A stretch of DNA of 64,000 nt from the IMG/VR virus record IMGVR_UViG_3300009551_000046; one strand, 5' to 3'. The position numbers were made by a program, and so were the translations under genes. The notes beneath the pieces were generated by a model. It was not told the origin of the DNA, did not search any database, and saw nothing but the letters and a program-made list of their open reading frames with translations. Below are positions 2,167 through 55,645 of this stretch, in pieces (positions within the stretch are counted from its first letter, which is position 1; every line of letters begins with the position of its first letter). The stretch is from an uncultured virus (IMG/VR IMGVR_UViG_3300009551_000046) (taxonomy: Duplodnaviria > Heunggongvirae > Uroviricota > Caudoviricetes).

Positions 2167-2397
2167 TCAACGATCAGTGCAGGGATAGCGGTGATCGTTG
2201 ATCAGGCCGCAGCGCGGGCACGGCGCCCGGGTGTCGACGATCGGCGTCTCGGAGAGCAAAACCTCGTGCAGCACCGGGCAGAACATCATTGCGTAGCAGG
2301 GACCGTCATGTCCCGGGTGCGGCTGCTTGGCCTCCCGTGCCTGCATCCGGGCGAGTGCGGCGACGGAGGTTTCGAACTCTCTTTGCGTCCAACCCAT
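2167..2397 (-). CDS. Small Cys/His-rich hypothetical protein
   Basis: MGWTQREF...CPRCG...; AAGGA RBS and promoter-like element upstream. Confidence 0.6.
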   Translation of the reverse strand: MGWTQREFETSVAALARMQAREAKQPHPGHDGPCYAMMFCPVLHEVLLSETPIVDTRAPCPRCGLINDHRYPCTDR

Positions 2398-2448
2398 TTG
2401 AGCGGTCCTTTTTGGCGGAACTAGGGAATATCGTCCCCAACGGGCTTG

Positions 2449-3534: not shown

Positions 3535-3563
3535 TGGACGTCAGGGGCCGATTTTCCCTATAA
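3535..3563 (+). promoter_or_regulatory. Putative sigma70 promoter
   Basis: TGGACG-N17-CTATAA upstream of the 3594 gene. Confidence 0.45.
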
Positions 3564-3593
3564 GGGGCGTTCGCCAAGGAAAGAGGGAATCCG

Positions 3594-4160
3594 ATGAGCA
3601 TGAGAACCTGCGGAGACTGTCAGCTCTGCTGCCGCGTTCTGCCGATAGCAGAGATCTCGAAGGCCGCCGGCAAGCGCTGCGGCTATCAGAAGTTCGGTGT
3701 CGGCTGCAAAGTGCACGGCACGCCGACGCAGCCGCAGTCGTGCATGGCTTGGTCGTGTTGGTGGCTGATCGACCCGAAGTTCGAGGCTCCGCGCCCGGAC
3801 CGCGCCGGCTATGTCGTCGACATGATGGCAGATTTCATTGTGCTAGGCGGTGACGTGTTCGCAGGAAAGCGGGTGCCGGCAATCCAGGTGTGGGCCGACC
3901 CGAAGCGCCCGGACGCCTGGCGGGAGCTCCTGCCCTGGATCAAAGCGACCGCGATCGGGGATGCCGAGCGGGCCGCTGTGATTCGCTTCAACTCGCGCGA
4001 CGCTGTCGTCATTCTGCCGCCGGCGCTATCTAGCACCGGCGATTGGGCCGAGACCGACACCCGCATGCTGAAGCCGATCGAGACGGAGCAGCTGCGTCGC
4101 AAGACGGCAGAGGATCAATTGAGGAAGATCGAGGAGCGAGCCCGTGAGAAAGAAGTTTGA
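3594..4160 (+). CDS. CxxCxxCC (YkgJ-like) metal/Fe-S-binding protein
   Basis: CGDCQLCC...C...C...C...C pattern. Confidence 0.7.
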   Translation: MSMRTCGDCQLCCRVLPIAEISKAAGKRCGYQKFGVGCKVHGTPTQPQSCMAWSCWWLIDPKFEAPRPDRAGYVVDMMADFIVLGGDVFAGKRVPAIQVWADPKRPDAWRELLPWIKATAIGDAERAAVIRFNSRDAVVILPPALSSTGDWAETDTRMLKPIETEQLRRKTAEDQLRKIEERAREKEV

Positions 4161-4776
4161 TCCGTATGAGGCGCTCGGCGTCGCGCGCGAAGCCGAGGAA
4201 GCGGAGATCAGGGCTGCGGCGCGCCGGGCGGCCAAGGACACACATCCGGATGCCGGCGGGGATGCCGAAGCGTTCAACGACACACGACGCGCGCTCGCGA
4301 TCCTGACGGACCCAAAGCGGCGGGCCAAGTTCGATCGGACCGGAGAGGCGGAGGACGTCGAGCCAGACAACACGGAAGCCGCGGCCATGTCGATCATTGA
4401 GGGCGAGCTCGCCGCGCTGATGAACGCCTTCCTGTCGAACGACTTCAACCCGATGCTTGACCCGCGGAAGATCGATCTCGTCAAGCATATCGAGGGCAAG
4501 ATCGGCGAACGCATAGCCGGATTGTTCAAGTTGAAGCTGCAGGCTCAAAGCCACGCAAGGGTCTTGAGGGACGTCGCGGAGCGTTTCAGCCGCAAAAAGG
4601 ACGCGGCCGGCAAGTTCAATTTCATTTCCCGCAGCCTTGAGAATCAGTCGAGGGAGATCGAGCGCAAACTCGAAGAGATCATTCTCGGCATCGACAATCT
4701 CAAGGCTGCGAAAGACATGGTATCGACATATGAATTCCGGACTGACCCGGCATATGGGGCTGCTTTCTTTCGCTAG
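4144..4776 (+). CDS. J-domain (DnaJ-like) protein
   Basis: DPYEALGV...IRAAARRAAKDTHPDAGGDAEAF...LTDPKRRAKFD with HPD motif. Confidence 0.85.
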   Translation: MRKKFDPYEALGVAREAEEAEIRAAARRAAKDTHPDAGGDAEAFNDTRRALAILTDPKRRAKFDRTGEAEDVEPDNTEAAAMSIIEGELAALMNAFLSNDFNPMLDPRKIDLVKHIEGKIGERIAGLFKLKLQAQSHARVLRDVAERFSRKKDAAGKFNFISRSLENQSREIERKLEEIILGIDNLKAAKDMVSTYEFRTDPAYGAAFFR

Positions 4777-4975
4777 CAGCCCGTAATGAGGACGCGAATC
4801 GTCACCCCCCAAATCATCACGGTCGCAAGAAACATCGCGAGCGCGATGATCTCGTGCGGTCCGAACAGGGCGATCCAATCCTTCAAGGTGTGCTTCGGGG
4901 CGGGATTCATGGTTGCGGTCCTTTTGTTGGGGGAACTGGGACATCATGCCGGGAAGGTGTTAAAGCCGGGTTAAT

Positions 4976-5573: not shown

Positions 5574-7268
5574 ATGGCAAAGGCGCGCGCCGCCGAAGCC
5601 GAGCCGATCGAGGATTGGGCCGCGCTGATCGACTGGAAGGCGCCGCACTATGCGGACGTCCTCGAGGAGCGCGCTCGCCGGCTGCTGCGGCTGCGGGAAA
5701 ACCCCGATCTGCTGCCGGGGCTGCGGGAGTATTACCGCGAGCATCCCGCGGACTTCATCAATGATTGGGGCATGACGTTCGATCCCCGCAATGCAGACAT
5801 CGGCTTGCCGACCGTGATGCCGTTCATCCTGTTTCAGAAGCAGCGGGATTGGGTGCAATGGGTGATCGACCGCTGGCGCGCCCGGCAGCGGGGACTGTGC
5901 GAGAAGGCGCGCGACATGGGCGTGACCTGGCTTGCCGTCGGGCTAGCAGACACGCTCTGCCTGTTTCACGAGGGAGTCGTCGTCGGCTTCGGCAGCCGCA
6001 AAGCGGAATATGTCGACGAGATCGGCACCATGAAGCCGATCCTGCCGAAAGCGCGGTTCTTTATGGAGCACCTCCCGCGCGAATTCCGCGGTGACTGGGA
6101 GGCCTGGCGGGACGCGCCGAAGAACCGGATCGGCTTCCCCGAAACCGGCTCGATCATCACCGGCGAGGCTGGCGACAACATCGGCCGCGGCGACCGAACG
6201 ACGCTCTATTTCGTCGACGAGGCGGCGCACCTTCAGCGCCCGATGCAGACGGAGGCTGCGCTGTCGCAGACGACGCGTTGCCGCATCGATATGTCGTCGG
6301 TCAACGGCATGGCCAACCCGTTCGCGCAAAACCGCTGGAAATGGAACGACGAGCGCGTGTTCATCTTCGATTGGCGCGACGATCCTCGCAAGGACGACGC
6401 TTGGTATGCCCAGCAGGTTGAGGACTTCGACCCTGTCGTCGTCGCGCAGGAAATCGACCGCGACTATTCGGCTTCGGTGTCGGGGATCGTGCTGCCGGGC
6501 GCATGGGTTCGCGCCTGCATCGACGCCTGCGAGAAGCTAGGGATTGAGCCGACCGGAACGCCGCGTATGGCGCTCGACGTTGCAGACGAAGGCATCGACA
6601 AGAACGCGGCGATCGCCGCGAAGGGCGTCGAGCTAATTCACATTGAGCAGTGGAGCGGCAGGGGCAGCGACATCTTCGCAACGGCACAGCGCGCCGTCGA
6701 AATCTGCGATCTGCTCGGAATCCCGGAGTATCGATACGACGAGGACGGGCTCGGTGCCGGCATCCGCGGCGATATGCGGATCATCAACGAGCAGCGCATC
6801 GCTCTCGGGGCGAGGCCTCGGCAGGCGATCGGATGGCGTGGCTCGAACTCTGTCGTCGATCCCGAGGGCATCGTTAGGGGCACGAAGGGGCGCGACGGCA
6901 AGGACAAGGGCCGCAAGAACAAGGACTTCTTCGCAAACCGCAAGGCGCAAGGATGGTGGAACCTGCGCATACGTGTCGAGAACACGTACAAATGGGTCGT
7001 GAAGGGGATCAAGTGCGACCCGGACGAAATCCTGTCGATCCCGTCGAACCTGCCCGAAGCTATGAAGCTGATCGCGGAATTGAGCCAGCCGACCTATGAG
7101 ACGAACGGTCTCGGGAAAATCGTCATCAACAAGAAGCCGGACGGCATGCCGTCGCCGAACATGGCGGACGACGTGATGATGCTATTCGCCCCAGGAGATC
7201 CGGTTATCACCGTGTCGCCCGATCTGCTCCGGGCAGCTGCGCAACTGCCGCGCCGCCGGCGACACTGA
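5574..7268 (+). CDS. terL: Terminase large subunit
   Basis: EKARDMGVTW (Walker A variant), YFVDEAAH (Walker B), ALDVADEGID nuclease motif, C-terminal SPNMAD. Confidence 0.92.
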   Translation: MAKARAAEAEPIEDWAALIDWKAPHYADVLEERARRLLRLRENPDLLPGLREYYREHPADFINDWGMTFDPRNADIGLPTVMPFILFQKQRDWVQWVIDRWRARQRGLCEKARDMGVTWLAVGLADTLCLFHEGVVVGFGSRKAEYVDEIGTMKPILPKARFFMEHLPREFRGDWEAWRDAPKNRIGFPETGSIITGEAGDNIGRGDRTTLYFVDEAAHLQRPMQTEAALSQTTRCRIDMSSVNGMANPFAQNRWKWNDERVFIFDWRDDPRKDDAWYAQQVEDFDPVVVAQEIDRDYSASVSGIVLPGAWVRACIDACEKLGIEPTGTPRMALDVADEGIDKNAAIAAKGVELIHIEQWSGRGSDIFATAQRAVEICDLLGIPEYRYDEDGLGAGIRGDMRIINEQRIALGARPRQAIGWRGSNSVVDPEGIVRGTKGRDGKDKGRKNKDFFANRKAQGWWNLRIRVENTYKWVVKGIKCDPDEILSIPSNLPEAMKLIAELSQPTYETNGLGKIVINKKPDGMPSPNMADDVMMLFAPGDPVITVSPDLLRAAAQLPRRRRH

Positions 7269-7269
7269 G

Positions 7270-7298
7270 TAGACAGCGAATTCGACTCATGCCATATA
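7270..7298 (+). promoter_or_regulatory. Putative sigma70 promoter of intergenic sRNA
   Basis: TAGACA(7270-75)-N17-CATATA(7293-98), an alphaproteobacterial sigma70-like arrangement. Confidence 0.55.
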
Positions 7299-7303
7299 TC
7301 GAG

Positions 7304-7404
7304 CGTCGCTGCTTCCTTCCAAGTTGCTCGACAAGTTCTCCTTTCTTGGCGGAACGGAGAGATCAGGGCGGCGCTTCAGGAAACTGGAGCGCCGTTTTGT
7401 TTTT
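7304..7404 (+). ncRNA. Candidate ~100-nt trans-acting sRNA (CCUUCC loop, UUGGCG loop, terminator)
   Basis: Promoter upstream, hairpin TTCTCCTTTC-TTGGCG-GAACGGAGAG, intrinsic terminator; no plausible + strand ORF. Confidence 0.55.
7367..7404 (+). terminator. Rho-independent terminator
   Basis: GGCGGCGCTTCAG-GAAA-CTGGAGCGCCGTT followed by TTGTTTTT. Confidence 0.8.
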
Positions 7405-7472
7405 GACCCCATGACGCGGCCTTTCCTCCCGTGGTAAGGAGTTCAAAGGTTCAAGCGCGGAAGGGGTCGACG

Positions 7473-10400
7473 ATGGCGAACGGATGGGGCGGGAAGCGTC
7501 CGAACAGCGGGCCCAAAGTAGGGGCCGACGGCAAGGCGCTGAAGCCGTACAGCCGCCGAGATCAGTCGAAAAGTTCAAGCGACAGTTCAAGGAAGCCAGC
7601 CGACGCGCAGGTGATCTCGACGAAGCCGGCGACACCGAACCGCCCGATGTTTTCGCCCGAATCCGTCGAGGCGATCATCTCGGCGTTCCGCGAACTGAAG
7701 TCGCGCCGACCGCGTCCGAGGACGCCTGAAACCAATCCGTACATGATCCGACCGGAGCTCTTCGGGCCGGTCGCAGTCGACATCAAGAAGAGGAAGCCTA
7801 CCCTCGCGATGGATGCGGATACCGGGCTCGTGAGCGCGAATTCGTTCGCTGTTCAGGCCTGGCAGAACGGCTCGCTCGGCGGCGGTGACGATGCGTCCGA
7901 AGGCATGCTGTTCCTCGGCTACCCCTATCTATCCCAGCTGACGCAGCGCCCGGAATTCCGGCTGTTCGGCGAGATCATGTCGGAAGAGATGACTCGCAAA
8001 TGGATCGAGTTTCGCGGCACCGACGATGCGAGCACGAAGGAAAACGACAAGCCGAAGCGGCGCAACGACGACGACGACGAGGCAGATCGGCGCCGGCAAA
8101 AGACGGGCGAGAAGCCGCGGTCTGATGACCGGAACAAGGAGATCGAGCGCAAGGTTCTCGAACTGAAGGATTTCGCCGAGGAGCTCAAGCTGCGCAGCGT
8201 GTTCAAGGCGGTTGCTGCGCAGGACTCCGATTTCGGAATCGCGCATCTGTATCTTGATCTGAAGGGCACCGACATCGACAACCAGCGCGACAAAGAGAAC
8301 GCGATGTCGATCGGCAACGGCCGCGACGACATTTCGAGCAGCAAGCTGACGACCGGTTGCTTGGCCGGGCTGCGAACCATCGAACCGATTTGGTGCTATC
8401 CGACGGCCTACAATGCGTCGAACCCGATTGCCCCGGATTGGTATGACCCGGCCGTCTGGTATGTGATGGGCGCCGAAATTCACAAGACGCGGCTGCTGCC
8501 ATTCATCGGCCGGCCGGTGCCCGACATCCTGAAGCCGGCTTATGCGTTCGGCGGACTATCGATGTCGCAGATGGCGCAGCCATACGTCGACATCTGGCTG
8601 CGGACCCGCGAAAGCGTTGGCGAGATCATTCATGCGTTCTCCGTCATGGTGCTATCGACGGAGCTCGGCACGACGACCCAGCCAGGCGGTGCCGGCGGAG
8701 GCAACGGCGATATTCTCGCCCGCATGATGCTTGCGAACATGCTTCGGGACAACCAAGGCATGATGGTGATCGACAAGACATCGGAGGACTTCAAGAACAT
8801 CAGCGCGCCGATCAGCGGGCTCGACGATCTGCAGGCGCAGGCGCAGGAGCATATGTTTTCGGTCGGCCGGATCCCGGCGGTGAAGTTTGCCGGCATCCAG
8901 CCGAAGGGTCTGAACGCGACATCCGACGGCGAGATGCGCGCCTTCAACGACACGGTTCACGGCCGACAAGAGCATCTCTTTCGGCAGCATCTGACGACCG
9001 TGCTCGACATCATGCAGATTTCGCTGTGGGGCAAGCGAGATCCGGACATCACGTATGACTTTCTCCCGCTGCACGAGGAGACGCCGAAAGAGAAGGCGGA
9101 GATTCGCAAGATCGAGGCGGAGACCGATCAGGTCAGGGTCGACAGCGGCGTCGTGTCGCCCGAGGAGGTGCGGGCAAAGGTCGCGGCCGATCCTGAATCC
9201 GGTTTCCAGGGGCTTGATCCGGATGACGTTCCCGATCTGCTGCAGGAGGAGCAGGAGGGGTTGATCCCGGAGGGCGCCGGCAAGGGGCTTGAGGCCGAGC
9301 TCGAGGCCGGCGGCAAGCCGCGGGAGAGTCGCACGGCGCCGAAAAAAGACGACGGCGCCGAGGATGACGATCTCGACGACGACGACGAATTCGACGGCGC
9401 CTCTGACGAATGGCAGGAGGGCAAGCATCCGCGGGACCAAGACGGCAAGTTCGCGTCGTCAGGCGGCGGCGGCGGCGGAGGTGCGGCGGCGGAGCCGTCT
9501 CCCGAGGCATCGAAAAGCGACACGCTGAAGAAGGCGAAGCAGATGATCGAGGAGCAGGATCTCGCCGATCCGCAGCAACTCGCGTCTGTGATCGAGGCTG
9601 CGGAAAAGCACGGCCTCTCCGGCGTGATCATGAAGGGGCTGAAATCCGTTCAGGAGAAGGTCGGCAAGCCGCCGGCGCCGGCAGCGGGGAAGCCGCCGGC
9701 ATCGACGACCGGAGGGCCGAACGCCGCGCCGCAGCTGCCGCTGAAGAAGCTCGACGTATCGAAGCTCGACAAGGTCGGTCAGCAGATGGGATCGAACCCG
9801 GGCGGCGTCTATGTAGACCCGGCGAATGGCGAGAAGTTCTACGTCAAGAAGCCGAAGGGCCCGGCGCAGGTGAAGAACGAAATCGCTGCCGCGAAGCTGT
9901 ACCAGCTCGCCGGTGCGCACACGTTCGAATATCTCGACGCCGGACCCGATCATGTTGCAACCAAGATCGAGGCGCTGAAAAAAAAGAACGTCAGCGAGTT
10001 GTCTCCGGAGGAGCGCAAGGAAGCACAGAGGGACTTCGCGATACACGCCTGGCTTGCGAATTGGGATGCGGTCGGCACCGGAGGCGACAACGTTGGCGTC
10101 GGCGCCGATGGCAAGGTGAAGGTGCTCGACACCGGCGGATCGCTGAAATATCGAGCGCAGGGCGAGATGAAGGACTTCGGCGCAAGTCCGAACGAACTCG
10201 TGACGCTGCGCGACCCGAAACTGAATCCCGACGCTGCGGCGCTCTTCGGCGATATGTCTGAAGCGGACATGACGGCGAGTGCGGCACGCGTAGCCGACAT
10301 CCCCAACAACGCGATCCGTGATGTCGTGAAAGCTGCCGGCGAGAGCGAAGAACTCGCCAATACGCTGATCGCACGCAAGAACTCTATCGCGCAGAAGTTC

Positions 10401-11972
10401 GATCTATGGCCTGCAGGCGACACGAACCCCGAATGGGAGGCGCTGCATCCGCGCGGTCCCGGCGGCAAGTTCGCGAAAAAGGCAGGCGCCGAGGAGCCGG
10501 CGAAGCAGGAGGCGGCGGAGCCGGAGGAGAGCACCGAGGAGATCGGCGGCAAGGTCGAGATCGACATGCTTCTCGCGAAGAAGCCGATCGCGGGATCGAA
10601 CTATCGCAAGGCGCTCCAGAAGGCGCTGAAGTCGGGCGGCCTGTCTCCGGAGCAGACGAAGACGGCCGCGGAGAACCTCTATCTGTCTTGGCACAAGACG
10701 ATGGACAACTACGCGGCCAAGGGCGATCACGACACCGCGGGCAAGATCAAGGAGAAGCTGAACAAGATCTTCGACGACTACAATCTCGACGTGACCGCTC
10801 TGTGGGAAAAATTCGAGGCGATGTCGCCCTCTAGCCCCATGATGAAGCCCGCATCGGTCGGCAAGAAGAAGGAAAAGGCGAAGAGCGAGCCTCCGCCGGC
10901 GCCGGCGCCTGCCGCGCCCGAGCCGCCGCCTGCACCGCCCCCCGCACTGGAGCCGCCGCCTGCGCCTGCGAAGCCTGAACCGGCCAAGCCGGAGAAGAGC
11001 GCGGCTGCCAAGTTCTATCCGGAGCCGACAGAGGCCGACCTTGCGAAGGCCAAGAAGACGGCTGAGCTCAAGATGGAATACGTGAAGGGCTCGAAGCCGA
11101 AGGAACCCGAGGGGGTCGCGGTCGCGAACAAATTGATCGCCGACTTCAACGAGAAGTATGCCGGCAAGGAGATCACTGATCACGATGAGCTCGTCGAGAA
11201 GGTGGCGCAGTTCAAGGGATTGAGCGACGCGATCAACGCGATGGGGGTGATGGAGGAAAAGGGTGCGCAAGAAGCAAACGCGGCAGCCCTAGCCAAGATC
11301 AAGCAGGTTCAGAAGGAAAAGGCGGAGCAGGAGGCCAAAAAAGCCGCCGAGGAAGCGGCCAAGCACGCCGAACGCAACAAGAAGTTCATGAGTGAACTCG
11401 GCATCAGCGAGAAGCAAGCCGAGGGCATGTATGGACTCGCGCAGATGCTCGGCATGTCCGGCAAGGATCTTGTCGGCGAGTTCAAGCACTACGAGGAGGA
11501 AGCAAAGGGGCTCGGCTATCCGATCTCCGGCTTCCAATGCGCGGTGATCAAGAACTACAGCGGGAGCGGCTATCAGGCGGTGAATTCTGCTCTGCGGTCC
11601 GGAGCCTGGACGCCGGCGCAGCACGCGTATGTGTCGATGGTGAACAAGGCGCTCTCCGAAATGCCGAAGCATACCGGGGTCTGCAAGCGCGGCACGGACC
11701 TCACGGCTGCGCAGATCGCTCAATACAAGCCCGGCCATATCGTCCAGGAGAACGCGTTCCTGAGCACGGCATCGACGGGGTCGGGCTTCAGCGGGAATGT
11801 CCGCTTCACGGTCACCGCGATCGGAAAGCGGGGAGCGTCGATCCAAAAGCTTTCGCTGCATCCGAGTGAAAACGAAGTGCTGTTCCAGGCGCGGACCTTC
11901 TTCAAGGTGAACAAGGTCGAGAAGAAGGACGGCTTCACCGAAATCCACATGGAAGAGTGGGAGGAGCACTGA
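7473..11972 (+). CDS. Portal protein (DUF1073-type) fused to an atypical kinase-like domain and a C-terminal ADP-ribosyltransferase
   Basis: Portal: FLGYPYLSQLTQRPEFR...EMTRKWI, VPDILKPAYAFGGLSMSQ, IPAVKFAGIQPKGLNATSDGE. Kinase: GSNPGG/YVK/NE/WD..DN/DTG. ART: KRG/FLSTA/ENE. One uninterrupted ORF. Confidence 0.85.
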   Translation: MANGWGGKRPNSGPKVGADGKALKPYSRRDQSKSSSDSSRKPADAQVISTKPATPNRPMFSPESVEAIISAFRELKSRRPRPRTPETNPYMIRPELFGPVAVDIKKRKPTLAMDADTGLVSANSFAVQAWQNGSLGGGDDASEGMLFLGYPYLSQLTQRPEFRLFGEIMSEEMTRKWIEFRGTDDASTKENDKPKRRNDDDDEADRRRQKTGEKPRSDDRNKEIERKVLELKDFAEELKLRSVFKAVAAQDSDFGIAHLYLDLKGTDIDNQRDKENAMSIGNGRDDISSSKLTTGCLAGLRTIEPIWCYPTAYNASNPIAPDWYDPAVWYVMGAEIHKTRLLPFIGRPVPDILKPAYAFGGLSMSQMAQPYVDIWLRTRESVGEIIHAFSVMVLSTELGTTTQPGGAGGGNGDILARMMLANMLRDNQGMMVIDKTSEDFKNISAPISGLDDLQAQAQEHMFSVGRIPAVKFAGIQPKGLNATSDGEMRAFNDTVHGRQEHLFRQHLTTVLDIMQISLWGKRDPDITYDFLPLHEETPKEKAEIRKIEAETDQVRVDSGVVSPEEVRAKVAADPESGFQGLDPDDVPDLLQEEQEGLIPEGAGKGLEAELEAGGKPRESRTAPKKDDGAEDDDLDDDDEFDGASDEWQEGKHPRDQDGKFASSGGGGGGGAAAEPSPEASKSDTLKKAKQMIEEQDLADPQQLASVIEAAEKHGLSGVIMKGLKSVQEKVGKPPAPAAGKPPASTTGGPNAAPQLPLKKLDVSKLDKVGQQMGSNPGGVYVDPANGEKFYVKKPKGPAQVKNEIAAAKLYQLAGAHTFEYLDAGPDHVATKIEALKKKNVSELSPEERKEAQRDFAIHAWLANWDAVGTGGDNVGVGADGKVKVLDTGGSLKYRAQGEMKDFGASPNELVTLRDPKLNPDAAALFGDMSEADMTASAARVADIPNNAIRDVVKAAGESEELANTLIARKNSIAQKFDLWPAGDTNPEWEALHPRGPGGKFAKKAGAEEPAKQEAAEPEESTEEIGGKVEIDMLLAKKPIAGSNYRKALQKALKSGGLSPEQTKTAAENLYLSWHKTMDNYAAKGDHDTAGKIKEKLNKIFDDYNLDVTALWEKFEAMSPSSPMMKPASVGKKKEKAKSEPPPAPAPAAPEPPPAPPPALEPPPAPAKPEPAKPEKSAAAKFYPEPTEADLAKAKKTAELKMEYVKGSKPKEPEGVAVANKLIADFNEKYAGKEITDHDELVEKVAQFKGLSDAINAMGVMEEKGAQEANAAALAKIKQVQKEKAEQEAKKAAEEAAKHAERNKKFMSELGISEKQAEGMYGLAQMLGMSGKDLVGEFKHYEEEAKGLGYPISGFQCAVIKNYSGSGYQAVNSALRSGAWTPAQHAYVSMVNKALSEMPKHTGVCKRGTDLTAAQIAQYKPGHIVQENAFLSTASTGSGFSGNVRFTVTAIGKRGASIQKLSLHPSENEVLFQARTFFKVNKVEKKDGFTEIHMEEWEEH

Positions 11973-12196: not shown

Positions 12197-12225
12197 TGGA
12201 CACCGATCGACGAAAGGGAAAATAA
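12197..12225 (+). promoter_or_regulatory. Putative sigma70 promoter
   Basis: TGGACA-N17-AATAAT. Confidence 0.4.
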
Positions 12226-12297
12226 TCCCTCCTGACGATGCGTCGTCCGCATAGCCGCCAAAGCGTGACGAACGGTGTTATGTCTCTCAATATGCCC

Positions 12298-12345
12298 CAG
12301 GAGGGGTGAAGGGTCGCCGACCGGTCCTTCACCCCTTTCCTGTTT
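12298..12345 (+). other. Strong intergenic hairpin (terminator or attenuator candidate)
   Basis: CAGGAGGGGTGAAGG ... CCTTCACCCCTTTCCTG inverted repeat followed by TTT. Confidence 0.45.
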
Positions 12346-12360
12346 CGGAGGTCGGAAGCG

Positions 12361-13354: not shown

Positions 13355-14155
13355 ATGCCGAAGCGACCGAAGTCGAAAGTTCTGCGGCCTGTTCACCCGA
13401 ACGCTGGGCTGCAGGCATGGTATCGGCGCCGGCTGCTCGCCCTCGTCGACGAGATGCACGATTCCTACCTCTATTGGCTCAAGGCGGCTTATGCTGCGAA
13501 CCCGCCGGCGATCGCGCAGGACGAATTGCCGTCGGCGGCACTGCAGCGCGCGCTGAAGCGACTCGTCAAACGGTGGCGGAAGAACTTCGCGACGGCGGCC
13601 GACGAGCTCGCCGTCTACTTCATGACGAAGATCGAAAAGCGCTCGCGCGCGACCCTGATGAAGATCCTCCGCGATGGCGGCTGGACGGTCGAGCTCAACA
13701 TCACGCCGGCGTTGCGCGACGTCATCCGGGCGTCGGTGATCGAGAACGTCGCGCTGATCAAGTCGATCCCGGAGCAGTTTCACACCCAAGTCGAAGGGCT
13801 CGTAATGCGGTCGGTCACCGCGGGCCGAGATCTCGCCCCGTTGACGAAGGCGCTGCAGAAGCAGTTCGGGGTCACGCGGCGCCGCGCCGAGCTCATTGCG
13901 CGCGATCAGAACAACAAGGCGACCGCGGCGATCACGCGGGCCCGCTATGTCGATCTCGGGCTTACCGAGGCGATCTGGCTGCACTCCGGCGGCGGGAAAC
14001 AGAAGCGCCCGACGCATGTCGCGAACTCCGGAAAGCGCTTCGACGTCGTCAAGGGATGGTTTGACCCGGATCCCAAGGTGCGGCGGTTCATTCACCCGGG
14101 CGAACTGATCAACTGCCGGTGCGTCTGCCGGCCGGTCGTCAAGGGGTTCTCATGA
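13355..14155 (+). CDS. Head morphogenesis protein (MuF/SPP1 gp7 family), short form without toxin domain
   Basis: RAELIARDQNNKA, W.H...RPTH, HPGELINCRC. Confidence 0.9.
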   Translation: MPKRPKSKVLRPVHPNAGLQAWYRRRLLALVDEMHDSYLYWLKAAYAANPPAIAQDELPSAALQRALKRLVKRWRKNFATAADELAVYFMTKIEKRSRATLMKILRDGGWTVELNITPALRDVIRASVIENVALIKSIPEQFHTQVEGLVMRSVTAGRDLAPLTKALQKQFGVTRRRAELIARDQNNKATAAITRARYVDLGLTEAIWLHSGGGKQKRPTHVANSGKRFDVVKGWFDPDPKVRRFIHPGELINCRCVCRPVVKGFS

Positions 14156-14442: not shown

Positions 14443-14666
14443 AAACTAGGGAGTTCAAGGCGCTCAAGAGCGCTTACGAAACGCCGGATGGCTGGGGGTT
14501 GTTCAGCGCCAAGACGACAATGCTTCTCGCCAAGCGGGGCTACTTCGCGGAGGCGCAGCATCCCCGTTTCGGCAAGCAATGGCGCCTGACTTCGGCCGGC
14601 CGTGAGGCCTTCGAGAAAGCTAACAGCGCCCGCGATCAGATCGCTGGACGTCCGCGCCGGGGATGA
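14439..14666 (+). CDS. Hypothetical protein (winged-helix-like)
   Basis: ATGA overlap; LAKRGY...WRLTSAGR. Confidence 0.55.
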   Translation: MKTREFKALKSAYETPDGWGLFSAKTTMLLAKRGYFAEAQHPRFGKQWRLTSAGREAFEKANSARDQIAGRPRRG

Positions 14667-14706
14667 TTATCCTCTAGCGTACCGCCAAGAACCGAGAATC
14701 GGATCG

Positions 14707-14901
14707 ATGACAGCAGAGCAGGAACAGATCGAGCGGCTTCGCATCGCTCTTCAGAAGTGCGCCGGTGCGCTCATGGCAAGCGCCGACGGTCGCGCGAACA
14801 TCACTTTCAACGGCGAGTTCTCGTATTTGGGTCGCATGACGGTCAACGAGATCCTCGACGAGGCCAACCAGGCGCTCGAGCTCACAAGGGGCGACCGTTG
14901 A
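14707..14901 (+). CDS. Hypothetical protein
   Basis: MTAEQEQIERLRIAL; coupled to the next gene. Confidence 0.5.
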   Translation: MTAEQEQIERLRIALQKCAGALMASADGRANITFNGEFSYLGRMTVNEILDEANQALELTRGDR

Positions 14902-22816: not shown

Positions 22817-22887
22817 GCGGGGGCATGGTTCGGGCTGGGGGAGGTCATGCCCCTCGGCTAGGGGTTCGAATCCCCTCCCCCGACGCA
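22817..22887 (+). ncRNA. Degenerate tRNA-like element (possible CAT anticodon)
   Basis: Perfect T-arm AGGGG-TTCGAAT-CCCCT, acceptor GCGGGGG/CCCCCGA, imperfect anticodon arm with GTCATGC loop, short weak D-arm, ends GCA rather than CCA. Confidence 0.35.
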
Positions 22888-22914
22888 TTCCGCCAAATCA
22901 GGAGAACGTCGAAA

Positions 22915-23169
22915 ATGACTTTGGACGTGATGACGGGGTGGGTGATCATTGCGGCGATCGCGGCGTTCGTTGTGATCTACGGGATCTGTGCGGCCGCGCG
23001 CGGCGCCGCCGCTGAACGCCGAATTAAGCATGAGGAATTCAGGGCGCGGCTTCCCCTTGAGCATCAGGAGCGGCTTTCGAGCATCTCGGCGAATCGGGAT
23101 GTCGAGATGGCGAAGTCGCTGAAGGCGGAGCCGAAGCCCATGATCATGATCGAGGGTAAGGGCGAATAG
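22915..23169 (+). CDS. Small membrane protein
   Basis: AGGAG RBS; N-terminal TM helix. Confidence 0.65.
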   Translation: MTLDVMTGWVIIAAIAAFVVIYGICAAARGAAAERRIKHEEFRARLPLEHQERLSSISANRDVEMAKSLKAEPKPMIMIEGKGE

Positions 23170-30651: not shown

Positions 30652-30676
30652 CCCTCGACGAACCAATCGTGCTTTT

Positions 30677-30706
30677 GAAGGGCCGCTTCGACAAGCGGCC
30701 CTTTTT
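30677..30706 (+). terminator. Rho-independent terminator
   Basis: GAAGGGCCGCTT-CGAC-AAGCGGCCCTTTTT. Confidence 0.75.
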
Positions 30707-30768
30707 CGTGGTACGGAGGGATCAGCCGAAACCCGCCGGCATAAGCGGAGCGAAAGGAGCCTTGTGCT

Positions 30769-33522: not shown

Positions 33523-35508
33523 ATGGCTACCATTCCCGCAAGAGACATCGTTTCGGTAAACCCGGGCGTATTGCCGGCCGGCGGCTCCGCCCTCGATATG
33601 ATCGGGCTTTTCCTGACGTCGAACACCCGGGCCCCGATCGGCCAGGTGCTAGCCTTTGCCAGTCAGGCGGATGTCGCAACCTACTTCGGCGCCTCGGCGC
33701 TCGAGGCCTCGCTCGCGACGATCTATTTCAACGGCTTCGACAATTCGCACAAGAAGCCGGGCTCGCTGCTCTTCGCGCAGTACAATCAGGGCTCCGTCTC
33801 GGCGTTCCTCCGCAGCGGGTCGGTCGCGGGCCTGTCGCTCGCGCAGCTGCAGGCGATCAACGGCACGCTGAACATCACGATCGACGGCTATCCCCGCTCG
33901 ATCGCGGCGCTCAACCTGTCCGCGGCGACGAGTTTCTCGGCAGCGGCCGGTCTGATCCAGACCGCGCTGAACGCCGGCGGCGCCAATCCGACCGTCGCAT
34001 CCGTCACCGGTGCGGTCACGGCCGGAACCTTCACCATCACGGGATCGATCGCCGGCAACCTCCTGACGGTCTCGGCCGTCGGTTCGGGCACGGTTGTCGC
34101 CGGCGGCACGATCACCGGCACCGGTGTCGCGGCGAACACGATCGTCACCGGTCAGATCTCCGGCACGACCGGCGGCGTCGGCGTCTACACGGTCAACAAC
34201 AACCAAGTCGCAGGGTCGACGTCGCTGTCCGGCACGTACGGCATCCTGACGGTGACCGTCGTCGGCTCCGGAACGCTGTCGGTCGGCCAGACGGTTTCGG
34301 GCGGCACGATCGCGGCCGGAACGCAGATCACGCAACTCGGCACCGGCACCGGCGGCCTCGGCACCTATTTCCTGAGCACGAACACGACTTCGGTCTCGGG
34401 CGCCGTTACCGCGGTCGGCACCTCCGCGACCGTGACGTACGACTCGGTTTCCGGCGGCTTCATTGTCACCTCGGGCGTTCTGATCGGCCCGTCCTCGTCG
34501 ATCGCGTACGCGACCGGAACGACGGCTGATCCGCTGAACATGCGGCAAGCCGACGGCGCGGTGATCTCGCAGGGCTCCGCCGGGCAGACGCCGAGCGCGT
34601 TCATGAATTCGGTCGTCGCGGTCACCCAAAATTAGACGACCTTCATGTCGCTGTTCGACCCCGACTACGGGACCGGCAACGTGCAAAAGCAGGCGTTCGC
34701 TGCATGGGTGAACGGGACGAACAACGGCTATATGTACGTCGGGTGGGACACCGACATCACCGCGACGAACACGTTGCCGGCGAGCTCGAGCCTCGGCCAG
34801 ATCCTCGCGTCGAACAATTCGTCGGGCACCTATATCCATTGGGCGCCGGACTCGACGCAGGGTCCGATCAAGGCGGCCTTCATCTGCGGCGCGACCGCCT
34901 CGATCGACTTCACGCAACGGAACGGGCGCATCACCTTCGCGTTCCGCTCTCAGACCGGGCTCTTCGCGGACGTCACCAACCAGACGATCGCGCACAATCT
35001 CGGCGGCGATCCGCAGTCGATCGGTTCGCGCGGCAACTACTATAATTTCTACGGCGCGTATGCGACGCGGAACGATCAGTTCGTCTTCGAGAACCGCGGC
35101 TTCGTCTCGGGGCCGTTCCTGTGGGCGGACAGCTACGTCAATCAGATTTGGCTGAACAACGCCCTGCAGCTGGCGCTGATGCAGCTGCTGACGACCGTCT
35201 ACTCGATCCCCTACAACACGCAGGGATACGCGCTGATCGAGGCGGCCTGTCTCGATCCGATCAATGCCGCGCTCAACTTCGGCGCGATCCGGGCCGGGAT
35301 CACGCTGTCGGCGTCTCAGATCGCAGAGGTCAACGCGGATGCCGGCATTGACATCGCGACTACGATCTCGGCGCGCGGCTGGTATCTGCAGGTGCTCGAC
35401 GCGCAGCCGCAGGTTCGGGCCGCCCGCGCGTCGCCGCCGTGCACCCTCTGGTACACCGACGGTCAGTCGGTGCAGGCGATCAACCTCGCGAGCATCGAAA
35501 TCCAATAA
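33523..35508 (+). pseudogene. Tail sheath protein (DUF3383 type) interrupted by in-frame TAG at 34633-34635
   Basis: TIPA..IVSVNPGVL.AGG N-terminus and WYTDGQSVQAINLASIEIQ C-terminus in one frame; junction VTQN*TTFMSLFDPD. Confidence 0.8.
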
Positions 35509-35539: not shown

Positions 35540-35974
35540 ATGGCTTCGATCACTTCCGCGAACGCTGTGATCATGCTGGCGGTGCCGGGCGTCTTCAACG
35601 CGCCGACGCCGCTGCAGCAGTTCTCAGCCGAGGACATCTTCACCAACGACGCGATCCAAGCGGCGGAAACCGCGATGGGTGTCGACGGCTTCCTCGCCGC
35701 CGGCTTCGTGTTCAACCCGGTGACATGGTCGGTGTCGCTGATGGCGGACTCGCCGTCGAACGACTTCTTCGATCAGTGGTATCAGGCGAACCGAAAGGCG
35801 GTCGACGTCTACCGCTGCAACGGCTCCGTCTGGCTGCCGAGCCTCGGCAAGAAGTACGACATGCAGAGGGGCGCGCTCACGACCTACCGGGTGATGCCGG
35901 ATGCCGCCAAGACGCTGCGGTCCCGGACCTTCGGCATCATCTGGCAAGCCGTCTCTCCGGCCGTTCTCGGCTAA
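35540..35974 (+). CDS. Tail tube protein
   Basis: SITSANAV..L.V...MGVDG.L.AGFV...L.ADSPS...F; follows the sheath gene. Confidence 0.8.
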   Translation: MASITSANAVIMLAVPGVFNAPTPLQQFSAEDIFTNDAIQAAETAMGVDGFLAAGFVFNPVTWSVSLMADSPSNDFFDQWYQANRKAVDVYRCNGSVWLPSLGKKYDMQRGALTTYRVMPDAAKTLRSRTFGIIWQAVSPAVLG

Positions 35975-36005
35975 CCTGATCCCGTATCCGCCAAGGAGGT
36001 AAGAC

Positions 36006-36437
36006 ATGCGAAAGACTGAGATCTTCGTCGTCCCGAAAGAGGCCGGCAACCGTGACAGCGGCAAGCGCTTCCTGATCACAGAGATGCCGGCCATGAAGGC
36101 GGAGCGCTGGGCAATGCGGGCGCTGCTAGCCATCTCCCGTTCAGGCGTCGACATCGGCGTGCACAAGAACGCGGGCTTCGCCGGCATCGCGATCGCCGGC
36201 CTGAAGGCGCTCGAAAACCTCAACTTCGAGGAGGCGCGGCCGCTGCTCGACGAGATGCTCGAGTGCGTTCAGGTGATGCCTGACCCGAAGAATCCGGAGG
36301 TTGTTCGCCCGCTCATGCTCAATGAGATGGAAGGCGACGACTTCGAGGAGGTCGCGACGATCCTGAAGATTCGGGAGCGGATTTTCATGTTGCACGCTGC
36401 TTTTTTTTTGAAAGAGAAGCAGTCGAAGAAAGGCTGA
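36006..36437 (+). CDS. Tail assembly chaperone (gpG-like)
   Basis: RDSGKRFLITEMPA..AERWAMRA; ends AFFLK at a T9 run. Confidence 0.8.
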   Translation: MRKTEIFVVPKEAGNRDSGKRFLITEMPAMKAERWAMRALLAISRSGVDIGVHKNAGFAGIAIAGLKALENLNFEEARPLLDEMLECVQVMPDPKNPEVVRPLMLNEMEGDDFEEVATILKIRERIFMLHAAFFLKEKQSKKG

Positions 36438-46112: not shown

Positions 46113-46189
46113 GGCTATTTTGCCCCTTGTGAACCGAGGTGCCCCGGGCGATAAGTTCCCCTGTTAGGAACGATACAGGGAACATACTG

Positions 46190-47398: not shown

Positions 47399-47438
47399 TC
47401 TAAGGCTCTGACGAGCCCAACATCAGGAGATCCGAGCC

Positions 47439-48371: not shown

Positions 48372-48374
48372 CCG

Positions 48375-48635
48375 ATGACGAAGAACCTGACGGCACCCGT
48401 GATCATCACGATCATCGTCCTCGTCGGGTTCACGTCGTTGTCGATCATGGCGATGAAGCCGCAGGCGGCCGGCGTCGAGAAGGACGTCGTCCTGTACCTG
48501 CTCGGCGCCTGGCAGTCTCTCGCATCGGCCGCGGTCATGTATTGGGTCGGCTCGAGCGCCGGCTCGAAGGGCAAGGACGACGTCATCAGGGCAATGACGG
48601 GCGGCGCGCCTGCGGCTGACGAGGTGAAGCAATGA
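48375..48635 (+). CDS. Holin-like membrane protein
   Basis: Two TM helices, YWVGSSAGSK.KD. Confidence 0.65.
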   Translation: MTKNLTAPVIITIIVLVGFTSLSIMAMKPQAAGVEKDVVLYLLGAWQSLASAAVMYWVGSSAGSKGKDDVIRAMTGGAPAADEVKQ

Positions 48636-49150: not shown

Positions 49151-49152
49151 TA

Positions 49153-49828: not shown

Positions 49829-49869
49829 GGGCTGCTACAGGTTGCGCGTGCGGTGGCGTCTCGGCGTTA

Positions 49870-55201: not shown

Positions 55202-55414
55202 TTATGCCTTCTGCTCGGCGCTCGCGCGGATGACGAGGTCGCAGGCGTGCTGCGCAGCCTCGGCGGTCTTGAACAGGCGCCGGCGCCGCCCATTGGGCGT
55301 GTGCAGAAACTTGCCGTTGACCATGGCGCCGTAGCTGAAGCGGCCATGACCGAAATCGACCGGGCCGGTGTGATCCGGGTTGTTGAAGGCTTGACGCGCG
55401 GTGATCGTTTCCAT
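55202..55414 (-). CDS. Hypothetical protein
   Basis: AGAGGA RBS. Confidence 0.6.
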   Translation of the reverse strand: METITARQAFNNPDHTGPVDFGHGRFSYGAMVNGKFLHTPNGRRRRLFKTAEAAQHACDLVIRASAEQKA

Positions 55415-55450
55415 TGGTCGTTCCTCTTTGGCGGAAAGGGAGAGGCGACG

Positions 55451-55645
55451 TCAGACCGACGTCGCGCGTTTTCGGGATTGACGATCTTGCAGGATCTGCG
55501 CGATGTCGCGCAGCTGATCATGGGTCGTTTGGCTGTCGTATAGGAACCAAACGATGCGCGTCGCGATCTCCTCGCTTCCCGCAAAGTCGGTCAGCATGTC
55601 CGCAGTTCGCTCGTGCTGACCTTTCAAAGTGCCGCCTGAATACAT
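55451..55645 (-). CDS. Hypothetical protein
   Basis: GGAG RBS. Confidence 0.5.
   Translation of the reverse strand: MYSGGTLKGQHERTADMLTDFAGSEEIATRIVWFLYDSQTTHDQLRDIAQILQDRQSRKRATSV

What the first reader, a model, noticed from the sequence alone, without database searches (positions are those of the whole stretch)
7270..7404. Self-contained sRNA between terL and portal, complementary to many phage ribosome-binding sites
Seen: a promoter (TAGACA-17-CATATA), then about 100 nt with a CCUUCC-loop hairpin, a hairpin UUCUCCUUUC-UUGGCG-GAACGGAGAG, and a U-tailed terminator. The segment 7335-7354 (GUUCUCCUUUCUUGGCGGAA) is the reverse complement of UUCCGCCAAGAAAGGAGAAC. That pairs in register with the 22915 start region (9 bp, 3 mismatches, 8 bp), the 14707 region (10 bp plus GAGAA), and the 2397 and 55414 regions (9-10 bp, a bulge, 6 bp). 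Known: UUGGCG/CGCCAA loop kissing initiates pairing in several plasmid and phage antisense systems (e.g. IncI-alpha Inc/repZ). Inference: a trans-acting, multi-target phage sRNA that occludes SDs of early, accessory and tail-chaperone genes, acting as an RNA-based regulon or timing switch. I do not recognise it as a named family. Its terminator also uncouples terL from the toxic portal fusion.
Basis: partly seen in the sequence, partly recalled or inferred. Interest (0 to 1): 0.85.

Follow-up and report, generated by a model that had tools for sequence, protein, structure and literature searches.

The report
Mirror copy of phage gene-start tag
Between two DNA-packaging genes, an uncultured soil phage carries a short terminator-capped stretch whose RNA is the mirror image of a private tag that sits in front of several of its small genes, so it may switch those genes off together, but no transcript and no related phage with the element have been seen.

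Summary
The 204-nt gap between terL (5574-7268) and the portal-ADP-ribosyltransferase gene (ATG 7473) has two modest hairpins, then the longest-stemmed intrinsic terminator among the 51 terminator-like sites scanned. The claimed complementarities are real and non-random.

The new point is that hairpin 2, read on the minus strand, is one copy of a dispersed ~40-nt gene-start leader. The leader is a CU-rich stretch, TTCCGCCAA, then a purine-rich ribosome site. In sense orientation it precedes at least five small ORFan genes (2397-, 4910-, 14707+, 22915+, 55414-). The terL-portal copy is the only strong copy with no coding-like ORF behind it, and it is reversed relative to the late genes around it. 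Late plus-strand RNA ending at the terminator therefore carries an antisense of that leader. Predicted binding to phage start regions exceeds that of the phage's own MmgR-like anti-SD sRNA.

Against a function: there is no Rfam family, no homologue beyond one identical contig, no RNA data, a weak promoter, and unremarkable hairpins. An empty leftover leader copy beside an ordinary terL terminator is a serious rival.

The closest known system is the start-associated sequences of Cluster K mycobacteriophages, some of which also have one reversed copy. Trans-antisense reading: about 0.4.

The parts
5574..7268 (+). terL (large terminase), 564 aa; its message runs into the element
   Evidence: ORF. 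phrog_5989 terminase large subunit. 242 relatives in viral contigs. Phage TerL hits.
7270..7298 (+). Weak promoter-like site: TAGACA, 17 nt, CATATA (shifted by one base: GTAGAC, 17 nt, CCATAT)
   Evidence: Sequence. Not called by the scan. Matches 9 of 12 positions of a recalled rhizobial consensus, one of 57 such sites in 144 kb.
7299..7331 (+). Hairpin 1, with an 11-nt CU-rich loop GCUUCCUUCCA
   Evidence: Alone, z is -1.9 on plus and -1.7 on minus. The loop complement is not repeated in the genome.
7336..7361 (+). Hairpin 2. Its minus-strand reading (7371..7322) is a copy of the dispersed gene-start leader (CU-rich stretch, TTCCGCCAA at 7354..7346, then GAAAGGAGAAC)
   Evidence: A leave-one-out nhmmer model of the other five copies finds it at E 6.7e-4.
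7364..7404 (+). Intrinsic terminator: 16-bp stem, GAAA loop, U4GU5 tail. It works on the plus strand only
   Evidence: Strand asymmetry of the fold: plus z -3.18 with 0 of 200 shuffles, minus z -1.61.
7403..7472 (+). Structured leader of the portal gene that buries its ribosome site (GGAAGGGG, 7459-7466)
   Evidence: MFE structure. Sequence.
7473..11972 (+). Portal protein fused to a C-terminal ADP-ribosyltransferase domain
   Evidence: PF06381 at 2.9e-66 and PF03496 at 8e-09. phrog_146. My query began 9 nt upstream of the ATG.
2167..2440 (-). Leader copy (2438..2390) plus a 76-aa ORFan starting at 2397
   Evidence: GC3 is 0.79.
4773..4955 (-). Leader copy (TTCCCCCAA variant, 4952..4906) plus a 45-aa membrane-like ORFan starting at 4910
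14660..14901 (+). Leader copy (TACCGCCAA) plus a 64-aa ORFan starting at 14707
22868..23169 (+). Leader copy (17 of 20 identical to the reversed 7335-7354) plus an 84-aa ORFan starting at 22915
55202..55456 (-). Leader copy plus a 70-aa ORFan starting at 55414
35964..36437 (+). Weaker leader copy (CCTGATC..ATCCGCCAAGGAGG) before the tail assembly chaperone gene (36006)
   Evidence: E 0.53; phrog_1932.
3548..4160 (+). Weak leader-like copy (CGTTCGCCAAGGAAAGAGG) before the 188-aa gene at 3594
   Evidence: 5 of 300 shuffles reach the score.

Best explanation
The plus-strand RNA that ends at the terminator (7364-7404) acts as a trans antisense ('anti-leader') RNA. That RNA is either the 3' end of the terL message or a ~100-nt transcript from the weak promoter-like site at 7270-7298.

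Hairpin 2 of this RNA (7336-7361) is the exact mirror of a private gene-start leader that this phage places before at least five small ORFan genes: a CU-rich stretch, UUCCGCCAA, then the ribosome-binding site.

Proposed steps:
1. The open apex of hairpin 2 (UUGGC...) meets the GCCAA stretch. In the target leaders this stretch tends to sit in a small loop closed by UCC/GGA pairs that include the ribosome site.
2. Pairing spreads over 17-20 nt across the Shine-Dalgarno sequence.
3. Translation of those genes is blocked together, at the time when the packaging genes are transcribed.

Shown here: the repeat family, its tie to start codons, the reversed orientation of this one copy, the lack of a coding ORF behind it, the plus-strand terminator, and favourable computed binding.

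Inferred: that the RNA accumulates, that it pairs in the cell, that pairing represses, and the timing.
For: 1. The motif is tied to gene starts and is private to this phage.
- CCGCCAA occurs 28 times in 72 kb on both strands. Seven of these lie within 35 nt upstream of an automatically called start on the same strand, against 2.9% expected (P 1e-5).
- Three of the 4 exact TTCCGCCAA copies are at starts. The fourth is the reversed copy in the element.
- CCGCCA and CGCCAA are the top hexamers upstream of SD-ATG sites here (13-14 of 281). In 765 kb of related phage loci they make up 1.1-1.3%.

2. The element's copy belongs to the family. A leave-one-out profile finds it at E 6.7e-4. It is the most consensus-like copy, with a mean of 25.0 of 54 identities to the others against 20.4-23.2 for the rest.

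3. It heads no gene. The minus-strand ORFs behind it (15 or 41 aa) have GC3 of 0.60-0.61 with GC1 below GC2. The other copies' genes have GC3 of 0.78-0.82. These ORFs have no Pfam or PHROG hit.

4. Plus-strand features. The terminator has a U tail on the plus strand only. The fold has z -3.18 on plus and -1.61 on minus. The element lies directly behind terL, so it is transcribed whenever terL is.

5. Computed binding, with opening costs included.
- Eight of 107 start windows bind at -15 kcal/mol or better, against 1 of 300 and 0 of 200 random windows.
- The phage's own generic anti-SD sRNA (the MmgR-like one) reaches -15 on 0 of 107 windows.
- The four best non-self duplex sites for hairpin 2 in the whole genome are all gene starts in sense orientation.

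6. The element is an insertion. In 19 of 25 terL relatives the next long ORF starts within 70 nt of the terL stop. The other 6 have insertions of 190-1275 nt.

7. A parallel that I checked myself. Cluster K mycobacteriophage Anaya has 16 forward start-associated sequences and one reversed copy. The reversed copy sits in the 10-nt apical loop of a hairpin in a 385-nt non-coding gap. The gap region is kept in 138 records.
Against: - No transcript evidence of any kind was obtained.
- There is no homologue of the element other than one identical contig. None was found in 80 viral and 80 metagenome terL loci, and the three closest terL relatives (71-75% identity) have other DNA at this place. Conservation and covariation therefore cannot be tested.
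- The promoter is weak and ambiguous.
- Hairpins 1 and 2 are not more stable than shuffles, and without the terminator they show no strand bias.
- The CU-rich part of hairpin 2 is in a stem. Only UGGC is predicted open.
- Complementarity to the leaders is exactly what a leftover reversed leader copy would also show.
- A relative (L090) has a small minus-strand protein gene at this same junction. This makes a decayed minus-strand gene start plausible.
- In Cluster K the parallel is not general. SirPhilip keeps 15 forward start-associated sequences with no reversed copy in the 49.9 kb searched. In 4 of 10 sampled phages the homologous hairpin has another loop. Only 2 of the 20 pairs of that hairpin show compensatory change.
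- One weak target (36006, tail assembly chaperone) is a late gene, which does not fit a simple late-shuts-off-early logic.
Confidence: 0.4

Rival explanations
1. This is a leftover reversed leader copy beside an ordinary terL terminator. A small minus-strand accessory gene once sat between terL and the portal gene, as in a relative. Its coding part was lost, perhaps by recombination between repeated leaders, and its leader stayed. Any pairing of the terL 3' end with other leaders is an unselected side effect.
For: - The copy is in the same sense layout as all other copies: a stem-loop upstream, a CU-rich stretch, TTCCGCCAA, a ribosome site, then a start-like TTG 11 nt on.
- The terL-portal junction takes insertions in 6 of 25 relatives.
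- L090 has a 34-aa hydrophobic minus-strand ORF exactly here.
- This phage has another minus-strand leader plus a 45-aa ORF inside the rightward cluster, at 4773-4955.
- Repeated regulatory cassettes before ORFans are known to drive gain and loss of such genes in T4-type phages (PMC2839356, abstract and section 13).
- Hairpins 1 and 2 are statistically unremarkable.
Against: - The copy is the most consensus-like of the family rather than decayed.
- It is flanked within 3 nt by a strong plus-strand terminator and lies in RNA that must be made with terL. With a computed binding of -15 to -19 kcal/mol, pairing would be hard to avoid, so it would be exposed to selection.
- No remnant of a coding frame is seen behind it.
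Confidence: 0.3
2. The shared TTCCGCCAA motif is a binding site for a protein or another factor, either a translational operator on the mRNAs or a DNA site. Under this reading the terL-portal gap is mainly cis-acting: a terminator or attenuator that sets the terL-to-portal ratio, plus a structured portal leader that hides the portal ribosome site. The reversed motif copy is a decoy or has no role.
For: [quoted passage not shown] The question was still open in 2025 (PMC12699233 passages).
- SirPhilip has the start motif without any reversed copy.
- A strong terminator directly upstream of an essential gene, together with a fold that buries the portal ribosome site, suggests cis control.
Against: - No candidate binding protein was identified.
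- Most relatives have no gap at all at this junction, so the element is not part of the ancestral terL-portal control.
- This reading gives no reason for a perfect reversed copy of the leader to sit here.
Confidence: 0.12
3. The element is a working minus-strand unit. The leader copy drives translation of a micro-ORF (TTG 7334, 15 aa) or heads a minus-strand transcript that is antisense to the 3' end of terL.
For: - The orientation and layout match the other leaders, with TTG 11 nt after the motif.
- A 9-of-12 promoter-like site exists on the minus strand at 7323.
- An SD-like GGGAGGAAAGG lies 7 nt before the ATG of the 41-aa minus ORF at 7412.
Against: - There is no coding signature (GC3 0.60-0.61, GC1 below GC2) and no family hit.
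- No promoter-like site lies upstream of the leader on the minus strand, even at relaxed thresholds.
- The minus strand has no terminator, and its fold is not better than shuffles.
Confidence: 0.08

Closest known systems
[quoted passage not shown] 2011, PMC3203893, passages read; PMC12699233, passages read)
   Same: - A short motif private to the phage overlaps or abuts the ribosome-binding site a few bases before the start codons of many unrelated, mostly non-structural genes.
- Nearly all copies lie in one orientation relative to the gene.
- Four K1 phages each have a single reversed copy that is not at a gene start.
- The function is unknown, and the authors left open both RNA and protein factors.
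- My own check in Anaya found 16 forward copies and 1 reversed copy. The reversed copy sits in a hairpin loop in a non-coding gap.
   Different: - The motif sequence is unrelated: TTCCGCCAA upstream of the SD here, against a 13-mer that contains the SD there.
- The host lineage differs: probably an alphaproteobacterium, judged from the MmgR-like RNA, against mycobacteria.
- There are fewer copies here: about 5 strong and a few weak, against 15-17 there.
- The reversed copy here lies behind terL next to a strong terminator.
- In Cluster K the reversed copy is not universal (SirPhilip has 0).
c4 antisense RNA of phages P1/P7 (recalled; Rfam C4 family)
   Same: It is a phage-made antisense RNA. 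It is not transcribed opposite its target. It pairs through short hairpin-presented stretches with the ribosome-binding region of phage genes and blocks translation.
   Different: - There is no Rfam C4 hit here.
- c4 acts on one downstream operon from the same transcript. This element would act on several dispersed genes on both strands.
Inc RNA / RNAI of I-complex plasmids (ColIb-P9; UUGGCG loop motif). Passages on RNAI read in PMC10724649; the Asano 1998 title seen only in its reference list
   Same: - A hairpin antisense RNA forms a loop-loop 'kissing' contact with a target hairpin, and inter-strand pairing then blocks translation.
- The hexamer UUGGCG is present at the apex of hairpin 2 (7346-7351).
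   Different: - Those RNAs are cis-encoded, transcribed opposite their single target.
- Here the predicted open loop is only UGGC.
- There is no sequence or Rfam relation.
Alphaproteobacterial anti-SD sRNAs (MmgR/alpha-r8, NfeR1/alpha-r14, AbcR1/2; PMC7143759 passages; PMC12559287 passages)
   Same: - About 80-120 nt long, with two or three hairpins and a terminator.
- CU-rich anti-SD motifs pair with the ribosome sites of many mRNAs.
- This phage itself carries a member of that family at 49868-49946 (59.1 bits against RF00519).
   Different: - The element matches none of those families, even at E up to 10.
- Its specificity comes from the private UUGGCGGAA stretch, not from a generic CCUCC-type motif.
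- Its main CU stretch is in a stem.
PeSL regulatory cassettes of T4-type phages (PMC2839356 abstract and section 13; PMC4122927 abstract)
   Same: - Repeated intergenic cassettes with a stem-loop and a ribosome site lie directly before ORFan genes.
- They are associated with gene gain and loss, which gives a route to an empty cassette.
   Different: - PeSLs contain a strong sigma-70 promoter.
- Here only 2 of 8 leader copies have even a relaxed promoter-like match upstream.

Membership tests
Rfam RF00519 (suhB/MmgR, alpha-r8) and clan CL00108 | Covariance-model match at or above the gathering score | tested here: not met
   cmscan of 7150-7550 at E up to 10 gave only a 24-nt hairpin match to the Moco riboswitch model (E 0.31) and no suhB-clan hit. 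The true family member in the window is at 49868-49946.
Alphaproteobacterial anti-SD sRNA (as a kind, not a family) | Hairpins plus a Rho-independent terminator, with CU-rich motifs displayed unpaired | tested here: inconclusive
   The terminator and two hairpins are present. Hairpin 1's loop is CU-rich and unpaired. Hairpin 2's CU stretch is paired.
Any other Rfam family, including phage C4 antisense RNA | Covariance-model match | tested here: not met
   Searches gave no hit.
I-complex Inc RNA / RNAI | Encoded opposite its own single target (cis-antisense) | tested here: not met
   The complementary sites are 5 to 48 kb away on both strands.
I-complex Inc RNA / RNAI | UUGGCG displayed in the hairpin loop | tested here: inconclusive
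   The hexamer is at 7346-7351, but the MFE and centroid structures leave only UGGC open.
Start-associated sequence system (Cluster K type) | A private short motif within a few to about 20 nt upstream of the start codons of many unrelated genes, far above chance | tested here: met
Start-associated sequence system (Cluster K type) | One orientation relative to genes, with a rare reversed copy not at a gene start | tested here: met
   Three of the 4 exact TTCCGCCAA copies precede starts. The fourth (7346-7354, minus) has no coding ORF behind it.
Start-associated sequence system (Cluster K type) | The Cluster K 13-mer consensus itself | tested here: not met
   The motif is different, so this is an analogue and not a member.
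PeSL cassette | A strong sigma-70-like promoter inside each cassette | tested here: not met
   Only 2 of 8 copies have a relaxed promoter-like match upstream. The scans find no excess of promoter-like sites.
Intrinsic (Rho-independent) terminator | A G+C-rich stem-loop followed directly by a U tract on the transcribed strand | tested here: met
   Sixteen pairs, 9 of them G-C, with the tail TTTTGTTTTT on the plus strand only.
Independent sRNA gene | Its own promoter and a discrete transcript | not testable with these tools
   Only a weak motif match is available. No RNA data could be obtained.

The most novel reading that the evidence does not exclude
Phages that tag a set of their own genes with a private start-associated leader also encode, as a single reversed copy shown in a hairpin on a transcribed strand, the antisense RNA that reads that tag. 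This would be a phage-internal RNA regulon that shuts a whole set of accessory genes at once. Here it would be coupled to late (packaging) transcription. If true, it would give a mechanism for the start-associated sequences of Cluster K mycobacteriophages, unexplained since 2011, at least in the lineages that keep the reversed copy. Going by unchecked notes of this scan, the layout may recur in unrelated uncultured phages.
Probability: 0.35. Interest if true: 0.8.

Novelty: new variant of a known kind. Interest (0 to 1): 0.6.

Why it matters
If the plus-strand RNA really silences the leader-tagged genes, one short RNA made with the packaging genes would switch off a dispersed set of small accessory proteins by reading a shared tag next to their ribosome sites. 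I did not find this kind of phage-internal, multi-target control described. A search for 'phage-encoded' + 'small RNA' + 'anti-Shine-Dalgarno' returned one unrelated paper. The 2025 paper on start-associated sequences contains neither 'antisense' nor 'small RNA'.

It would also turn an open puzzle in culturable mycobacteriophages into a direct experiment. The question is why a private motif sits at many gene starts, with one reversed copy elsewhere.

If instead the copy is a leftover, the finding still documents a start-associated motif system outside the actinobacteriophages.

Tried and rejected
- **Rfam.** The whole window at gathering thresholds and 7150-7550 at E up to 10 gave no family for the element.
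- **Homologues through terL.** The 80 best of 242 viral-contig loci and the 80 best of 164 metagenome loci were compared with the 195-nt gap 7269-7463 by blastn. Only the identical contig L001 matched. All other hits had E of 0.15 or worse.
- **Homologues through the portal.** Residues 1-700 found only the same contig, plus an 18-residue N-terminal match in an unrelated Oscillospiraceae record.
- **Exact DNA patterns in viral contigs.** Only chance hits came back: 1 and 3 non-self loci, with no further similarity.
- **Published phages.** Only the terL coding part matched.
- **G001.** It proved to be the other half of the same phage, identical to window 44001-64000, and not a relative. I used it only to extend the working sequence to 72,034 nt.
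- **Relatives of a virus record.** These cannot be drawn.
- **Sequencing runs.** No RNA holder is listed. Contigs of four other DNA runs laid on 6500-8300 did not cover 7232-7475, so they gave no variants.
- **Coding readings of the gap.** The plus and minus 41-aa ORFs have no Pfam or PHROG hit and no coding composition.
- **A second repeat family for hairpin 1's loop.** Not supported.
- **A shared promoter in the leader copies.** Not supported.
- **Chance as an explanation of the complementarity.** Rejected.
- **Generic anti-SD content as the whole explanation.** Rejected by the MmgR-like control.
- **Literature.** 'UUGGCG' + 'antisense RNA' + 'loop' returned 0 papers in the held library. 'MmgR' + 'phage' returned 8 papers, none of which, by title and the passages read, reports a phage-borne copy.
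- **Earlier notes of this scan.** By place and by sequence there was nothing.
Full report
**Context.** The whole window is one phage.
- It holds terS-like and terL genes and a portal-ADP-ribosyltransferase fusion.
- It holds an accessory block with an HTH gene and a Mu F-like gene.
- It holds three tRNAs.
- It holds head, sheath-like, baseplate and lysis genes, then leftward recombination and helicase genes.
- G+C is about 63%.
- The same phage is present as two identical viral-contig fragments: L001 for the left part, and G001 for window ~36.4-72 kb. I used the second fragment to extend the working sequence to 72,034 nt.
- terL is 5574-7268. The portal ATG is at 7473, with GGAAGGGG at 7459-7466. 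The gap is 204 nt.

**The observation.**
- Folding 7300-7404 as RNA gives hairpin 1 (7299-7331, loop GCUUCCUUCCA).
- It gives hairpin 2 (7336-7361: UUCUCC/GGAGAG, an inner UUCU/GGAA stem, loop UGGC).
- It gives a 16-bp terminator with a U4GU5 tail. The energy is -46.1 kcal/mol, z is -3.18, and 0 of 200 shuffles fold as well.
- The opposite strand folds at -32.4 kcal/mol with z -1.61.
- This asymmetry comes from the terminator. Hairpins 1 and 2 alone are unremarkable on both strands (z -0.6 and -0.9).
- The terminator has the longest stem of the 51 terminator-like sites listed in 60 kb.
- The promoter-like site is weak. The scan does not call it. It matches 9 of 12 positions of a rhizobial consensus that I recalled from memory. 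There are 57 equally good sites in 144 kb, including one on the minus strand at 7323.

**Complementarity.** The four pairings are as described and are not chance.
- The 20-mer complementary to 7335-7354 has one non-self match with up to 3 mismatches (22888-22907). None of 100 shuffles produced any match.

**What the complementarity really is.** Searching the 9-mer TTCCGCCAA showed 4 exact copies. Three lie directly upstream of start codons in sense orientation. The fourth is the minus-strand reading of hairpin 2.
- An ungapped alignment of six copies shows a common layout. First comes an upstream stem-loop, then a CU-rich stretch often preceded by TGAT, then TTCCGCCAA, then a purine-rich ribosome site and a start codon 11-18 nt after the motif.
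- In sense orientation the copies precede small genes at 2397(-), 4910(-), 14707(+), 22915(+) and 55414(-).
- These genes encode 45-84 aa and have coding composition (GC3 0.78-0.82). None has a Pfam or PHROG family.
- Weaker copies precede the tail assembly chaperone gene (36006) and the gene at 3594.
- A profile built from the other five copies finds the terL-portal copy at E 6.7e-4 in 144 kb.
- That copy is slightly the most consensus-like member.
- The motif is start-associated. Seven of 28 CCGCCAA occurrences lie within 35 nt upstream of an automatically called start, against 2.9% expected. My gene calls are crude and miss some starts seen by eye.
- The motif is private to this phage. It gives the top hexamers upstream of SD-ATG sites here, about four times more frequent than in 765 kb of related phage loci.
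- The leader copies do not share a promoter.
- In several leaders the UCC of the motif can pair with the GGA of the ribosome site, leaving GCCAA in a small loop. These are short helices, and I give this only as a tendency.

**Which strand matters at the terL-portal copy.**
- The minus-strand ORFs behind the copy (15 aa from TTG 7334, or the 41-aa frame from 7412) lack coding composition (GC3 0.60-0.61, GC1 below GC2). They have no family.
- No promoter-like site lies upstream on the minus strand, and there is no minus-strand terminator.
- On the plus strand the copy sits 3 nt before a strong terminator and about 70 nt behind the terL stop. The antisense of the leader is therefore necessarily part of any terL message that reaches the terminator.

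**Computed binding.** Heterodimer free energies, which include the cost of opening both RNAs, gave these results.
- The 7300-7404 RNA binds 8 of 107 start windows at -15 kcal/mol or better.
- The same threshold is reached by 1 of 300 random windows in one run and 0 of 200 in another.
- Three of the eight (19082, 17267, 58468) bind through hairpin 1's generic CU loop rather than hairpin 2.
- As a control, the phage's own MmgR-like sRNA reaches -15 on 0 of 107 start windows. The effect is therefore more than generic anti-SD content.

**Comparative evidence.** None was obtainable for the element.
- Only the identical contig holds it.
- The three closest terL relatives (71-75% identity) have other DNA behind terL. 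One of them (L090) has a 34-aa hydrophobic ORF on the minus strand at this junction.
- In 19 of 25 relatives the next long plus-strand ORF starts within 70 nt of the terL stop. Six carry insertions of 190-1275 nt. I did not verify that each of those ORFs is a portal gene.
- The element is thus a lineage-specific insertion at a junction that accepts accessory DNA.
- No RNA data could be obtained (see Tried and rejected).

**Comparison with known systems.** The leader family resembles the start-associated sequences of Cluster K mycobacteriophages.
- Those are a private 13-mer at the ribosome site of many non-structural genes, in one orientation.
- Whether the factor is RNA or protein was left open (PMC3203893, passages). 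A 2025 paper still calls for functional tests (PMC12699233, passages).

I tested the parallel myself.
- Anaya has 16 forward sites and 1 reversed site.
- The reversed site lies in the 385-nt gap between gp96 and gp97, in the 10-nt apical loop of a hairpin (plus-strand z -2.43).
- The region is kept in 138 records.
- In a 10-phage sample the hairpin is kept, but only 2 of 20 pairs show compensatory change.
- In that sample the loop is the reversed motif in 6 of 10 phages.
- SirPhilip has 15 forward sites and no reversed one in the 49.9 kb searched.
- A reversed copy is therefore recurrent but not obligatory. This parallel raises the plausibility of an anti-leader RNA only modestly.

PeSL cassettes of T4-type phages (PMC2839356 abstract and section 13; PMC4122927 abstract) show how repeated cassettes before ORFans come and go. 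That supports the leftover rival. The leaders here lack the promoter that defines PeSLs.

The element is not a member of any Rfam family. It is not cis-encoded as the I-complex Inc RNAs are. The UUGGCG motif of those RNAs is a lead only (title seen in a reference list).

**Earlier notes of this scan.** A word search returned eight notes on other uncultured phages that describe the same layout. Each has a private start tag plus one reversed copy, often in a hairpin or before a terminator, and once just ahead of a portal gene. These are unchecked AI notes on other genomes. I could not test them here and do not count them as evidence.

**Verdict.**
The 'multi-target seed' is a reversed copy of a start-associated leader family.
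- The best-supported mechanism is a late plus-strand anti-leader RNA (about 0.4).
- A leftover leader copy beside an ordinary terL terminator is close behind (about 0.3).
- A protein or cis-control reading is at about 0.12.
- A working minus-strand unit is at about 0.08.

Noticed in passing
window 49868-49946 (+): A full-length match to Rfam RF00519 (suhB/MmgR, the alpha-r8 family; 59.1 bits against a gathering score of 41). It has two CU-rich motifs and a terminator. It lies inside the phage genome, between the lysis genes and the leftward early genes. A phage-borne copy of this host sRNA family points to an alphaproteobacterial host. I found no report of one in the 8 papers that contain both 'MmgR' and 'phage'.
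   Followed up: partly
window 12197-12360 (+): The best sigma-70-like promoter match in the window (TGGACA, 18 nt, AATAAT; 10 of 12). About 120 nt of structured RNA follows, ending in a long hairpin with a U-rich tail just before the gene at 12361. The stretch contains a sense-oriented CCGCCAA at 12255. It could be a leader/attenuator or another small RNA (fold z -1.62).
   Followed up: partly
window 22860-22885 (+): A tRNA-like 3' part (a T-arm-like GGTTCGAATCC hairpin) lies directly upstream of the leader of gene 22915. Neither ARAGORN nor Rfam calls it a tRNA.
   Followed up: no
window 7473-11972 (+) and 13355-14155 (+): The portal protein carries a C-terminal ADP-ribosyltransferase domain (PF03496, residues ~1346-1496 of my query). 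A separate Mu F-like gene lies 1.4 kb downstream.
   Followed up: no
window 4773-4955 (-): A 45-aa membrane-like ORF with its own leader copy lies on the minus strand inside the rightward cluster, between a DnaJ-domain gene and tRNA-Gln. It overlaps a 62-aa plus-strand ORF that shares its third codon positions. GC1 above GC2 favours the minus-strand frame.
   Followed up: partly
window 33523-34635 and 34645-35508 (+): Two adjacent ORFs match the N-terminal part (profile 3-180) and the C-terminal part (233-490) of the same Pfam family, DUF3383. This is either a split or frameshifted sheath-like gene, or a natural two-gene form.
   Followed up: no
window 30691-30724 (-), in the gap 30652-30768: A weak leader-like copy in reversed orientation (nhmmer E 0.44) lies next to a plus-strand hairpin with a U tail, between two rightward genes. 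It could be a second, degenerate reversed copy or simply chance.
   Followed up: no
L090 ~2250-2360 (minus strand of the locus): A terL relative (75% identity) carries a 34-aa hydrophobic ORF on the opposite strand exactly between terL and the portal gene.
   Followed up: no
L082 1511-1564 / L083: The first 18 residues of the portal protein (MANGWGGK...) match at 83% the N-terminus of an unrelated protein in an Oscillospiraceae record.
   Followed up: no
L172 39850-39905 (Mycobacterium phage Anaya, record 59849-59904): The single reversed start-associated sequence of Anaya lies in the apical loop of a hairpin in a non-coding gap. The region is conserved in 138 Cluster K records. Some records annotate a hypothetical protein across it.
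   Followed up: partly
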